63,595 nucleotides of DNA, taken from the sequence record MK373795.1, one strand, 5' to 3'. Source of the DNA: Escherichia phage vB_EcoS_HdSG1. Positions 32,173 through 32,886 of the stretch are shown here, piece by piece. The notes under the pieces were generated by a model. That model was not told where the DNA came from. It did not search any database and saw nothing but the letters and a program-made list of their open reading frames with translations. The translations under genes were made by a program, and so were the position numbers. How positions within the stretch are numbered: the first letter of the stretch is position 1; every line of letters starts with the position of its first letter.

Positions 32173-32886
32173 ATGTCTGACATGACTCTTATTCCGGGCG
32201 GTTTGGGTGGCGGTTTCGGTGGTGAAGCTGGCGCAGCGGCCGTTGGCGGTGGTATCGGTGGCTTAATCGGTTCGTGGATCGGAAATGGTTGGGGTGGCAA
32301 TGTCGGTTGGGGTGGTCGCGGCGGTTGGGGTGGTGGTGTCGGTGAAGTCCAGGCTTCCGTAGATACTAACGCAATTCTGCAAGCCATCAATAACGGCAAC
32401 CTGCAAAACATCCAGGGCCAGAACGGTACTAACCTGACTGTCGAACGTTCTGCGGCGTCCACCTTCAACGGTATTACTCAACAGAACACTCAGAACATGC
32501 TGGCTTCCGTTCAGGGCTTTGCTGGTCTGAACACTGAAATTCGCACTGGTACAGCGTCTGTCGTAGCTGCTGTCAATGCTGCGGATGTAAACGCGTTGAA
32601 CCGTTCCTTCCAAGCTCAGTTAGCTGCTCAGGAATGTTGCTGCGAGACCAACATGAACATCGAACGTCAAGCGAACGAAACCCGTGGCCTGATCCGCGAT
32701 CAGTTTGCTCAGTCTCAAGCTGTTCTGATCTGTGATCTAAAATCTCAGTTGCAGGAAGCTCGCTTTGCGAACTCCCAGCTTCATCAGACCGCTCAGATCG
32801 ATTGTAAGATCAATCAGGTTGCACAGCTCGTTAACTTCAAACTGCCAACTCCTCCGACTCCGCCGACTGGTTGTTGTGCTTGCTAA
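32173..32886 (+). CDS. Gly-rich / Cys-containing hypothetical protein
   Basis: 237 aa; N-terminus MSDMTLIPGGLGGGFGGEAG...GWGGNVGWGGRGGWGGG; Gln/Asn-rich middle; CCC and C-terminal GCCAC; flanked by terminators. Confidence 0.65.
   Translation: MSDMTLIPGGLGGGFGGEAGAAAVGGGIGGLIGSWIGNGWGGNVGWGGRGGWGGGVGEVQASVDTNAILQAINNGNLQNIQGQNGTNLTVERSAASTFNGITQQNTQNMLASVQGFAGLNTEIRTGTASVVAAVNAADVNALNRSFQAQLAAQECCCETNMNIERQANETRGLIRDQFAQSQAVLICDLKSQLQEARFANSQLHQTAQIDCKINQVAQLVNFKLPTPPTPPTGCCAC

What the first reader, a model, noticed from the sequence alone, without database searches (positions are those of the whole stretch)
32173..32886. Moron-like gene encoding a Gly-rich, Cys-containing protein with a bacteriocin-like N-terminus
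This is an independent unit between two terminators (32018..32060 and 32908..32931). The 237-aa product starts MSDMTLIPGG followed by an extreme Gly/Trp-rich segment (GWGGNVGWGGRGGWGGG), then a Gln/Asn-rich region, CCC and a C-terminal GCCAC. The composition resembles Gly-rich microcin-type toxins, and a Gly-Gly after a short leader could be a substrate for the C39-like peptidase at 4571..5011. Alternatively it is a virion-associated or cell-wall-binding protein.
Basis: inference. Interest (0 to 1): 0.6.

Follow-up and report, generated by a model that had tools for sequence, protein, structure and literature searches.

The report
Abundant glycine-zipper accessory phage protein
The gene is real and is a self-contained, apparently very highly expressed but dispensable accessory gene found only in virulent phages; nothing supports the proposed microcin-like toxin cut by a C39 peptidase, and its true function is still unknown.

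Summary
The ORF 32173..32886 encodes the 237-aa protein as described and lies between two real intrinsic terminators. The window is a complete Nonagvirus (Queuovirinae) genome, about 98-99% identical to JenK1/HdK1 over the 1.1 kb around the gene.

The bacteriocin reading is not supported. The "C39-like peptidase" matches no peptidase family. There is no exporter. The N-terminal Gly-Gly is not a conserved position. No homologue exists in 72,556 plasmids, 5,426 E. coli genomes or 185,579 species genomes.

What is there is PHROG 9288, function unknown. The gene carries its own promoter-like site, a 5'-UTR hairpin with compensatory changes, and terminators. Its codon adaptation is the second highest of 93 genes, above the major capsid protein.

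It heads a mobile cassette with a MazG-like protein and two unknown proteins. The cassette occurs in Queuovirinae, 9NA-like and T1-like siphoviruses and N4-like podoviruses, with a decayed X-only copy in T5-like phages. Close relatives that plaque on K-12 lack it.

The protein has a conserved N-terminal octapeptide, a perfect (GxxxG)n glycine zipper, a low-charge Q/N/A-rich helical rod and a nearly invariant CC(C).

My best guess, at low confidence, is an abundant oligomeric rod acting on the host envelope. A non-essential virion fibre is the main rival.

The parts
32016..32062 (+). Intrinsic terminator that ends the tail-fibre / fibre-chaperone transcript: stem 32016..32052, then a U-run
   Evidence: -17.9 kcal/mol, z = -6.58, 0 of 200 shuffles fold as well. 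HdK1 annotates a terminator at the same place.
32092..32119 (+). Sigma-70-like promoter candidate: -35 TTGTGA (32092..32097), 16-nt spacer, -10 TATGCT (32114..32119)
   Evidence: Read from the sequence. It has 8 of 12 consensus matches, which is below the scan tool's cut-off. In about 20 related loci a -10-like hexamer sits 5-9 nt before the hairpin. The 19-mer spanning the -10 is unique in the window. The transcription start is inferred, not mapped.
32125..32142 (+). 5'-UTR stem-loop TGTAAC-GTAAGA-GTTACA at the predicted 5' end of the mRNA, 30 nt before the ATG
   Evidence: a hairpin lies 11-46 nt upstream of the ATG in 20 of 20 loci, with unrelated stem sequences in distant loci. Mean dG is -7.8 against -4.3 for shuffles; the 5 core pairs are 100% paired in 10 loci, 2 core pairs show compensatory AU<->GC changes, and the covariation score was reached by only 1 of 500 shuffles. 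The motif is unique in the window. There is no Rfam match.
32162..32166 (+). Shine-Dalgarno-like GGGGA, 6 nt before the ATG
   Evidence: Read from the sequence.
32173..32886 (+). Gene X: 237-aa protein, PHROG 9288, function unknown
   Evidence: CAI is 0.542, rank 2 of 93 genes.
32173..32196 (+). Residues 1-8, MSDMTLIP: a conserved acidic N-terminal peptide with no Lys or Arg
   Evidence: D3 and T5 are invariant; M1, S2, M4, L6 and P8 are >= 90% conserved; the N-side is net acidic and has no K/R in most homologues.
32227..32307 (+). Residues 19-45: weakly hydrophobic glycine zipper with Gly at 25, 29, 33, 37, 41 and 45 (GxxxG repeated five times)
   Evidence: Read from the sequence. The best 19-residue Kyte-Doolittle window is 1.25, reaching 1.7-2.0 in distant homologues. 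A single Arg follows at residue 49.
32284..32343 (+). Residues 38-57: Gly/Trp-rich linker, variable in length and sequence among homologues
   Evidence: AF2 models residues 1-64 as non-helical with pLDDT 31-44.
32365..32832 (+). Residues 65-220: predicted long alpha-helical rod, 40% Q/N/A and only 12.7% charged, containing the QGFAGLNT motif (114-121)
   Evidence: one helix 65-220, with block-mean pLDDT of 44 in the first block and 50-69 thereafter; composition, and no clean heptad period; the QGFxGxN unit is repeated 2-3 times in some homologues.
32635..32643 (+). CCC (residues 155-157); C156 and C157 are nearly invariant across the whole family
32845..32883 (+). C-terminal PTPPTPPTGCCAC: the Pro/Thr tail is conserved among close relatives; the terminal Cys cluster is not conserved
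32908..32934 (+). Intrinsic terminator directly after X
   Evidence: -12.5 kcal/mol, z = -2.9, followed by UUUUU.
32949..33314 (+). A121: cassette gene 2, His-rich N-terminus plus a MazG-like (all-alpha NTP pyrophosphatase-like) C-terminal domain
   Evidence: PHROG 9157. The best PDB profile hit is 2p06 (AF_0060) at E = 0.013. The BASEL record annotates the orthologue as 'putative pyrophosphatase'. It is syntenic with X down to 25-35% identity.
33331..33879 (+). B182: cassette gene 3, a confident beta-rich fold with no characterised relative
33876..34145 (+). C89: cassette gene 4, small and of unknown function
   Evidence: PHROG 7239; synteny.
34182..34215 (.). Strong hairpin terminator at the convergent junction between the cassette and the DNA polymerase gene
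   Evidence: 12-bp stem followed by a U-run. HdK1 annotates a terminator here.

Best explanation
**Shown.**
- X is a real, conserved gene of virulent phages only.
- It is its own transcription unit: promoter-like site, 5' stem-loop, ORF, terminator.
- It has codon usage as optimised as the capsid gene.
- It is the first gene of a horizontally mobile four-gene cassette found at the ends of late or structural operons in unrelated phage morphotypes.
- It is dispensable for plaque formation on E. coli K-12.

**Inferred.**
- The product is made in large amounts. The 5' hairpin would stabilise the mRNA.
- The product is an elongated helical oligomer. Adjacent cysteines (CC/CCC) could cross-link parallel chains.
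- Its N-terminus is a membrane-inserting element: an acidic tail, then a (GxxxG)n glycine zipper, then an Arg.

**Proposed mechanism, low confidence.** The zipper inserts into or binds the host inner membrane, with the acidic N-tail outside and the rod inside. This would resemble small YidC-inserted phage coat proteins. The zipper would oligomerise the protein. The resulting abundant membrane-attached rods would change an envelope property that matters in natural hosts but not on K-12. The candidates I consider most plausible are exclusion of superinfecting phages at the DNA-entry step, or modulation of membrane integrity and lysis timing.

X is not a secreted double-glycine bacteriocin and not the phage's spanin.
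For: - **Real gene and family:**
- **Autonomous unit:** terminators; -10-like element plus hairpin conserved in position in 20 loci with compensatory changes; signals unique in the genome.
- **High expression:** CAI 0.542 against 0.488 for the capsid gene and a median of 0.277. X ranks 1-3 within its neighbourhood in 15 of 16 other loci.
- **Mobile cassette in different virion types:** after tail fibres in Queuovirinae and Drexlerviridae; after the N4-type virion RNA polymerase; after other structural or non-structural genes.
- **Dispensable and patchy:** Bas19 and Bas20 lack the cassette, Bas21 lacks X, Bas25 has X only, and the T1-like Sfin-1 has fibre next to SSB.
- **Membrane-type N-terminus:** Gly at every fourth position from residue 25 to 45. 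The homologous segment is plainly hydrophobic in distant members, e.g. IWVILLFILLAG, with KD up to 2.0. The N-side is acidic without K/R and an Arg follows. SlyB glycine-zipper and fusion-peptide chains are among the weak PDB hits.
- **Virulent phages only:**
Against: - The hydrophobic segment of this particular protein is weak (KD 1.25, below the usual 1.6 threshold for a membrane helix), and AF2 does not model it as a helix.
- There is no signal peptide and no experimental localisation.
- A rod with 12.7% charged residues and 8 cysteines looks more like an extracytoplasmic or virion fibre than a cytoplasmic domain. This conflicts with the N-out/C-in topology suggested by the charges.
- The helical rod has no clean heptad periodicity and only pLDDT 50-69, so 'coiled coil' and 'oligomer' are unproven.
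- CAI uses E. coli weights and is only a proxy for expression.
- The promoter is a weak consensus match (8 of 12) and the transcription start is not mapped.
- No phenotype is known. Superinfection exclusion or lysis modulation is a guess based on analogy.
Confidence: 0.35

Rival explanations
1. X is a non-essential virion fibre or decoration protein. Under this reading it is a disulfide-knotted oligomeric rod attached to the capsid or tail through its N-terminal region. It would resemble dispensable head fibres or decoration proteins and be useful only in natural environments.
For: - It sits at the 3' end of the late/structural block, directly after fibre or other virion genes in most lineages.
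- Its codon adaptation is at capsid-protein level.
- It is dispensable, as decoration proteins often are.
- The low-charge Q/N/A/T-rich rod and adjacent Cys pairs are typical of extracellular fibrous proteins (established knowledge of collagen-III-type CC knots).
Against: - The cassette moves between T1-like, 9g-like and 9NA-like siphoviruses and N4-like podoviruses, with a decayed X-only copy in T5-like siphoviruses, without a co-transferred structural partner. The capsid and tail docking sites differ among these phages.
- It has its own promoter and hairpin rather than being embedded in the late operon.
- It has a hydrophobic glycine-zipper segment.
- It matches no PHROG structural family except a chance-level tape-measure hit at E = 0.024.
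- I found no open virion proteome that covers a phage carrying X.
Confidence: 0.25
2. X is a cytoplasmic, abundant scaffold, sponge or decoy. Under this reading a Gly/aromatic-rich disordered head plus a helical rod works with the cassette's MazG-like enzyme and the two unknown proteins in host takeover or counter-defence.
For: - X, A121, B182 and C89 stay syntenic down to about 27-35% identity of X.
- None of the four has a signal peptide (sequences).
- The head region is modelled as disordered.
- High abundance suits a stoichiometric inhibitor.
- The cassette sits where accessory genes accumulate.
Against: - X and A-B-C occur independently of each other: Bas25 has X only and Bas21 has A-B-C only. 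A terminator separates X from them.
- There are no hits in PADLOC or NCBIfam.
- The hydrophobic segment of distant homologues is hard to reconcile with a soluble protein.
- A low-charge, Cys-rich rod is unusual in the cytoplasm.
Confidence: 0.15
3. X is a spanin-like or fusion-protein-like lysis accessory. Under this reading an N-terminal fusion-peptide-like segment plus a long helix destabilises or fuses the envelope membranes at lysis.
For: - The architecture resembles an i-spanin or a class I fusion subunit.
- The best PDB sequence hits of the family profile are the influenza HA2 fusion peptide plus helix A (E = 0.009-0.1) and coronavirus S2 HR1.
Against: - The phage already has a complete lysis cassette: an Rz-like i-spanin with an embedded Rz1-like lipoprotein, an endolysin and a holin.
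- There is no lipoprotein partner in or beside X.
- X shows no similarity to the phage's Rz (E = 0.06).
- hhalign of the X family against HA2 gives only 9.7% probability over 17 columns.
- The N-terminus lacks the positive charges of an N-in anchor.
- X lies about 24 kb from the lysis genes.
Confidence: 0.05
4. X is a Gly-rich microcin or bacteriocin-type toxin whose short leader is removed after Gly-Gly by the phage's C39-like peptidase (4571..5011).
For: - The composition of residues 9-57 resembles Gly-rich microcins.
- MSDMTLIPGG matches the core of the double-glycine leader consensus, with an acidic residue at -8, hydrophobic residues at -7 and -4, and GG at -2/-1 (sequence; the consensus is from my own knowledge).
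Against: - The ORF 4571..5011 has no Pfam hit (E <= 0.01) or PDB sequence hit, and only an unknown PHROG.
- No ABC exporter or immunity-like membrane protein lies nearby.
- The leader is only 10 aa, against a typical 15-30.
- The GG position is not conserved, while residues 1-8 are highly conserved.
- The mature part would be a 227-aa helical rod.
- There are no homologues in plasmids, E. coli genomes or 185,579 species genomes, where bacteriocin loci reside.
Confidence: 0.03

Closest known systems
Morons of lambdoid phages (autonomous promoter-gene-terminator units inserted between conserved genes)
   Same: - X is bounded by terminators and has its own promoter-like site.
- The cassette is inserted between a fibre gene and a polymerase gene that are separated only by one or two small ORFs in close relatives.
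- GC3 is 0.50, against 0.25-0.35 for most neighbours.
   Different: - X is found only in virulent phages and never in prophages or bacterial genomes, so it is not a lysogenic-conversion gene.
- It travels as the first gene of a four-gene cassette.
Glycine-zipper membrane or lipid-binding segments (GxxxGxxxG, e.g. the SlyB/Pcp family or VacA) and Gly/Ala-rich signal-anchor-release (SAR) domains of phage endolysins and T4 RI
   Same: - X has a perfect GxxxG run from G25 to G45, weak hydrophobicity and an N-terminal location.
- SlyB appears among the weak PDB profile hits at E = 0.064.
   Different: - There is no lipobox and no positively charged N-region as in SAR domains or lipoproteins.
- No homology was demonstrated.
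- The attached domain is a long helical rod, not an enzyme or a small periplasmic domain.
Class I viral fusion subunits (influenza HA2, coronavirus S2) and phage i-spanins (Rz)
   Same: - Domain order: a Gly-rich amphipathic N-terminal peptide containing an xNGWxG motif, then a long polar helix.
- HA2 chains are the top PDB sequence hits.
   Different: - The E-values are marginal and the profile-profile probability is 9.7%.
- There is no C-terminal membrane anchor, no priming cleavage site and no o-spanin partner.
- The phage has its own Rz/Rz1.
- I regard the resemblance as convergent or compositional.
Double-glycine-leader bacteriocins and microcins (colicin V, microcin E492 type)
   Same: A Gly-rich hydrophobic region, and a short N-terminal peptide ending in Gly-Gly with leader-like spacing of hydrophobic residues.
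   Different: - There is no C39 peptidase, exporter or immunity gene.
- The leader is too short and the cleavage site is not conserved.
- The product is 237 aa with a long helical rod.
- The family is absent from plasmids and chromosomes.
Dispensable capsid decoration proteins and head fibres (T4 Hoc/Soc, phi29 gp8.5, SPP1 gp12, phage L Dec)
   Same: X appears abundant, is probably late-expressed, is dispensable in the laboratory, looks fibrous and is possibly an oligomer with interchain disulfides.
   Different: - There is no sequence or fold relationship.
- It has a hydrophobic N-terminal segment.
- It occurs in phages with unrelated capsid and tail architectures.
- Virion association is untested.

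Membership tests
Double-glycine-leader bacteriocin / microcin | N-terminal leader of about 15-30 residues ending in a conserved GG/GA/GS cleavage site | tested here: not met
   The peptide before G9-G10 is 8 residues long. In homologues the corresponding dipeptide is TG, TN, TS or AG, within a generally Gly-rich stretch. Residues 1-8 are among the most conserved in the protein.
Double-glycine-leader bacteriocin / microcin | Dedicated C39 peptidase domain or ABC exporter encoded with the precursor | tested here: not met
   The ORF 4571..5011 has no Pfam family at E <= 0.01, is PHROG 4049 (unknown) and has no PDB sequence hit below E = 0.8. The annotated stretches of the near-identical HdK1 genome that I read list no exporter.
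Double-glycine-leader bacteriocin / microcin | Adjacent immunity gene (a small membrane protein) | tested here: inconclusive
   The downstream genes A121, B182 and C89 show no hydrophobic segments by eye and have no family assignment. No immunity assay is possible with these tools.
Double-glycine-leader bacteriocin / microcin | Family members reside in bacterial chromosomes or plasmids of producer strains | tested here: not met
   No match in 72,556 plasmids or in 5,426 complete E. coli genomes. There are only 2 marginal fragments in 185,579 species genomes.
Double-glycine-leader bacteriocin / microcin | Antibacterial activity of the mature product | not testable with these tools
   This needs expression and external-addition killing assays.
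Moron (autonomous accessory unit) | Own terminator and promoter flanking a single gene | tested here: met
   Terminators. The promoter-like -35/-10 and the conserved position of a -10-like hexamer before the hairpin. The promoter is predicted, not mapped.
Moron (autonomous accessory unit) | Present or absent between genes that are adjacent in close relatives | tested here: met
   In ChristophMerian and FritzHoffmann the fibre gene is followed by the DNA polymerase gene with only tiny ORFs between them. GottfriedDienst lacks X and VogelGryff has X only.
Moron (autonomous accessory unit) | Expressed from a prophage to benefit the lysogen | tested here: not met
   All carriers are virulent phages, and there are no prophage or chromosomal copies.
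Two-component spanin, i-spanin (Rz-like) | N-in transmembrane anchor, periplasmic coiled coil, and a cognate lipoprotein o-spanin gene embedded or adjacent, within the lysis cassette | tested here: not met
   The phage has an Rz-like gene at 6253..6753 with an embedded lipobox ORF (LLMTGC) next to the endolysin and holin. X has no lipobox ORF, has an acidic N-terminus without K/R and shows no similarity to Rz.
Class I viral fusion protein (HA2-like) | Detectable homology to HA2 or S2 fusion subunits | tested here: not met
   The HMM search against PDB sequences gives E = 0.009 at best.
Class I viral fusion protein (HA2-like) | C-terminal membrane anchor and trimeric hairpin (six-helix bundle) | tested here: not met
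   There is no C-terminal hydrophobic segment; the tail is PTPPTPPTGCCAC. The monomer model is a single helix of low confidence. Oligomeric state is not testable here.
Glycine-zipper membrane segment | Repeated GxxxG motif within a hydrophobic stretch | tested here: met
   G25, G29, G33, G37, G41 and G45. The motif region is conserved. Hydropathy is 1.25 here and up to 2.04 in homologues.
Glycine-zipper membrane segment | Actual membrane insertion or oligomerisation | not testable with these tools
   This needs fractionation, topology reporters and cross-linking.
Capsid decoration / head-fibre protein | Stoichiometric presence in purified virions | not testable with these tools
   I found no open virion proteome of an X-carrying phage. 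The 9g, SLUR, Sfin-1 and P400 papers do not cover it. The 9NA-like paper is not held.
Capsid decoration / head-fibre protein | Dispensable for infectivity and highly expressed | tested here: met
   Natural X-less relatives plaque on K-12. X ranks 2 of 93 by CAI.

The most novel reading that the evidence does not exclude
X founds an uncharacterised class of phage effector. It would be a very abundant, glycine-zipper-anchored, cysteine-cross-linked rod that virulent phages of quite different morphotypes exchange as a ready-made expression cassette (promoter, mRNA-stabilising hairpin, gene, terminator).

It would act generically on the Gram-negative envelope. One possibility is that it blocks genome entry of competing phages. 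Another is that it acts as a fusion-peptide-like membrane-active agent on the infected cell or on neighbouring cells after release at lysis.
Probability: 0.15. Interest if true: 0.7.

Novelty: new variant of a known kind. Interest (0 to 1): 0.42.

Why it matters
By codon usage this is predicted to be one of the most highly expressed genes of a widespread group of coliphages and Salmonella phages, including members of the BASEL reference collection. Yet it has no assigned function, and in one BASEL record (SeppeHuegi) it is annotated as two fragments. It travels with its own expression signals between unrelated phage families and is lost without penalty on laboratory K-12. That pattern is typical of genes that matter in phage-phage or phage-host conflict in nature.

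Natural presence/absence variants already exist in a public collection: Bas19/20 lack the cassette, Bas21 lacks X, Bas25 has X only and Bas24 has the full cassette. The function is therefore directly testable.

For annotation, the finding removes a tempting but wrong 'bacteriocin plus C39 peptidase' label.

Tried and rejected
- **Pfam, NCBIfam and PADLOC scans of X and its three neighbours.** No significant hits.
- **PHROGs.** Only function-unknown families, plus a chance-level tape-measure hit at E = 0.024. BLASTP of X against the phage's own tape measure and Rz gave nothing.
- **AlphaFold2 of X.** One low-confidence helix. Foldseek against BFVD gave nothing.
- **HA2 / coronavirus S2 resemblance from the PDB sequence search.** Followed up with hhalign and rejected as homology.
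- **Spanin idea.** Rejected after finding the phage's own Rz/Rz1, endolysin and holin, and no lipobox ORF near X.
- **'Pseudogene in SeppeHuegi'.** Rejected: the ORF is intact and the record's annotation splits it. Genuinely disrupted copies exist in SE24, Salmonella phage 36 and 2019SD1.
- **Heptad-periodicity analysis.** It did not give a clean 3.5-residue period, so I do not claim a canonical coiled coil.
- **Literature searches** for virion proteomes or any mention of the gene, by accessions, PHROG/VOG ids and phage names. Nothing relevant was found.
- **Rfam.** No known RNA family in 31900..34300.
- **A link between loss of A121-B182-C89 and the RM sensitivity reported for Bas19 and Bas25.** Noted, but Bas20 is a counter-example.
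Full report
**1. Observation**

It includes MSDMTLIPGG, the Gly/Trp-rich run, the Q/N-rich middle, CCC (residues 155-157) and the terminal GCCAC. Both flanking terminators are real:
- Upstream: 32016..32052, -17.9 kcal/mol, z = -6.6, followed by a U-run.
- Downstream: 32908..32929, -12.5 kcal/mol, followed by UUUUU.

The window is a complete Nonagvirus (Queuovirinae) genome, 98-99% identical to JenK1 and HdK1 over the 1.1 kb around the gene. It has a 3,363-bp direct terminal repeat.

The gene is no accident of composition:
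- It matches PHROG 9288 (function unknown) end to end at E = 1e-129.
- It has 175 relatives in the word-indexed protein search.
- It has 112 cluster representatives at 50% identity in the exhaustive HMM search.

**2. What the protein looks like**

Alignments of close (A1) and distant (A2) relatives show a fixed order of elements:
- **N-terminal octapeptide, M-[S/T]-D-M-x-L-L-P.** It is almost invariant, acidic and free of Lys/Arg.
- **Gly/Ala-rich, weakly hydrophobic segment.** In this protein Gly falls at 25, 29, 33, 37, 41 and 45, a perfect repeated GxxxG glycine zipper. The best 19-residue hydropathy window is 1.25. The same segment reaches 1.7-2.0 and looks like an ordinary membrane helix in distant homologues, and one Arg typically follows it.
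- **Gly/aromatic linker.** It is variable in length and sequence.
- **Residues 65-220.** AlphaFold2 models these as one long helix at low confidence (block-mean pLDDT 44 in the first block, then 50-69). This region is 40% Q/N/A and only 12.7% charged, and has no clean heptad period.
- **Conserved motifs in the rod.** These are QGFAGLNT (repeated 2-3 times in some homologues), a nearly invariant CC(C), ATRxLI and L(I)CD(L/A)K.
- **Pro/Thr tail.** Its terminal Cys cluster is not conserved.

No Pfam, NCBIfam or PADLOC family matches.

**3. Expression signals**

Between the upstream terminator and the ATG lie three elements:
- A sigma-70-like site: TTGTGA, 16 nt, TATGCT, at 32092..32119.
- A stem-loop at 32125..32142, starting about 6 nt after the -10.
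- A Shine-Dalgarno-like GGGGA at 32162..32166.

In all 20 related loci examined, a hairpin lies 11-46 nt upstream of the ATG. In most of those I read by eye, a -10-like hexamer sits just before it. Stems differ completely in distant loci. The hairpins are more stable than shuffled controls, -7.8 against -4.3 kcal/mol.

In ten alignable loci the five core pairs are always paired. Two of them show compensatory AU<->GC changes, and the covariation score was reached by only 1 of 500 shuffles. The motif and the promoter-like 19-mer are unique in this genome, and Rfam has no match.

The codon adaptation index of X is 0.542. That is second of 93 genes and above the major capsid gene (0.488); the median is 0.277. 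X ranks first to third in its neighbourhood in 15 of 16 other loci.

I infer a strongly expressed, stabilised, largely monocistronic mRNA. The transcription start and protein abundance have not been measured.

**4. Context**

X is followed by three genes:
- **A121 (32949..33314).** It has a His-rich N-terminus and a MazG-like C-terminal domain. The best PDB hit is 2p06 at E = 0.013, and BASEL annotates the orthologue as 'putative pyrophosphatase'.
- **B182 (33331..33879).** It has a confident novel beta fold with no structural neighbour.
- **C89 (33876..34145).**

Hidden Markov models built from the four families recover the order X-A-B-C in about 30 of the 58 loci then held. Partial versions (X-A, X-B, X-A-B) occur where X is only 27-35% identical.

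The cassette lies after lateral tail-fibre genes in Queuovirinae and Drexlerviridae. A decayed copy of X alone follows the L-shaped fibre gene of the T5-like phage SE24. The cassette also follows the N4-type virion RNA polymerase, other virion genes and a phosphoesterase gene in larger phages. In the loci whose gene maps I inspected, it sits at the end of a rightward block facing leftward genes.

It is patchy among close relatives that all plaque on E. coli K-12:

| Phage | State of the cassette |
|---|---|
| ChristophMerian (Bas19) | Whole cassette absent |
| FritzHoffmann (Bas20) | Whole cassette absent |
| GottfriedDienst (Bas21) | X absent, A-B-C kept |
| VogelGryff (Bas25) | X only |
| Sfin-1 (T1-like) | Nothing at this junction |

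No homologue exists in 72,556 plasmids or 5,426 complete E. coli genomes. Only two marginal fragments appear in 185,579 species genomes.

X is therefore a dispensable accessory gene exchanged among virulent phages of different architecture.

**5.

The anatomy ('moron-like independent unit') is right.

The microcin / C39 model fails every testable criterion:
- The ORF 4571..5011 has no peptidase signature.
- No exporter appears in the annotated HdK1 stretches I read, about two-thirds of the genome.
- The leader is too short and its Gly-Gly is not conserved, while residues 1-8 are highly conserved.
- The product is a long rod.
- The family is absent from the places where bacteriocin loci reside.

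**6. Other ideas tested**

*Spanin.* The phage has its own Rz-like gene with an embedded Rz1-type lipoprotein ORF, plus an endolysin and a holin, at 6.2-7.6 kb. X has no lipoprotein partner and no similarity to Rz.

*Class I fusion protein.* The family profile's best PDB sequence hits are the influenza HA2 fusion peptide plus helix A and coronavirus S2 HR1, at E = 0.009-0.1. Profile-profile comparison gives only 9.7% probability. I treat this as convergent resemblance: a Gly-rich amphipathic peptide followed by a polar helix.

**7. Most likely mechanism**

*What is shown.* X is an autonomous, mobile, dispensable gene restricted to virulent phages, with signals and codon usage that point to high expression.

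*What is inferred.* The conserved glycine zipper is truly hydrophobic in distant members. It is flanked by an acidic N-tail and a following Arg. This points to a membrane-inserting or membrane-binding N-terminus. The adjacent cysteines and the rod point to a covalently stabilised oligomer.

I therefore favour an abundant envelope-acting rod whose benefit shows only in natural settings. Its role could be exclusion of competing phages at genome entry, or modulation of membrane integrity or lysis. Confidence is about 0.35.

The main rival, at about 0.25, is a dispensable virion fibre or decoration protein. The late-operon position, the capsid-level codon usage and the fibre-like, Cys-bearing, low-charge rod favour it. 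The spread across unrelated virion types, the private promoter and the hydrophobic segment count against it.

A cytoplasmic partner of the MazG-like cassette (about 0.15), a lysis fusogen (about 0.05) and the bacteriocin model (about 0.03) follow.

**8. Novelty and interest**

The family is catalogued (PHROG 9288, VOG6476) but uncharacterised. It has no detectable relative of known function.

As a kind of thing, a self-contained accessory gene with a membrane-type N-terminus, it is a new variant of something known rather than demonstrably a new category.

Interest is moderate. The gene is conspicuous, apparently very highly expressed and widespread. It is immediately testable with existing natural variants, but I cannot show what it does.

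Noticed in passing
window 1..3363 and 60233..63595: The two stretches are 100% identical over 3,363 bp with no gaps. The window is therefore a whole phage genome with long direct terminal repeats, or an assembly that runs past its own start.
   Followed up: partly
window 27681..29750 + 29692..31398, and 31398..31691 + 31718..31978: The lateral tail-fibre gene and the Caudo_TAP fibre-chaperone gene each read as two ORFs here. The fibre pair overlaps; the chaperone pair is separated by a short gap. HdK1 and an IMG/VR relative have single genes of 1112-1221 aa and 175-192 aa. These are frameshifts or sequencing errors. The middle of the fibre is also mosaic relative to those relatives.
   Followed up: partly
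window 32949..34145: Three genes travel with X across many phage lineages: a His-rich MazG-like protein, a 182-aa protein with a confident but unmatched beta fold, and an 89-aa protein. All are of unknown function.
   Followed up: partly
window 6253..6753 (embedded ORF around 6400..6650): The Rz-like i-spanin gene contains an out-of-frame ORF with a lipoprotein signal (...IIIALLMTGC|TTKSQPS..., Pro-rich). This is an embedded Rz1-type o-spanin. The 2014 paper on the related phage 9g reported that it could not find a complete lysis module.
   Followed up: partly
window 42472..43296 (-): This 274-aa ORF has the highest codon adaptation index in the genome (0.581), above X and the capsid gene, and has no NCBIfam match. 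It is probably another very abundant protein of unknown function.
   Followed up: no
It has no Pfam hit at E <= 0.01 and no PDB sequence similarity.
   Followed up: yes
L056 (phage SeppeHuegi, MZ501104) 21802..22584: The public record annotates the X orthologue as two separate hypothetical proteins. tblastn shows a single intact reading frame covering residues 1-235. This is an annotation artefact, not a pseudogene.
   Followed up: yes
L059, L061, L062 (BASEL phages Bas19, Bas25, Bas20): The BASEL paper singles out Bas19 and Bas25 as the only Queuovirinae with some sensitivity to type I/II restriction. Both lack A121-B182-C89. Bas20 also lacks them and is not flagged, so the link is weak but cheap to test.
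   Followed up: partly
L003 (Salmonella phage SE24) 5674..6336; L018; L036: Copies of X are interrupted or rearranged in the T5-like SE24 (in-frame stop and truncation), Salmonella phage 36 (frameshift in the Gly-rich repeat) and Shigella phage 2019SD1 (rearranged). This fits a dispensable gene that decays in some lineages.
   Followed up: partly
window 32148..32468 (-): A 106-aa Pro-rich ORF on the opposite strand is the mirror image of the GGT/GGC-rich part of X and is almost certainly not a gene.
   Followed up: no
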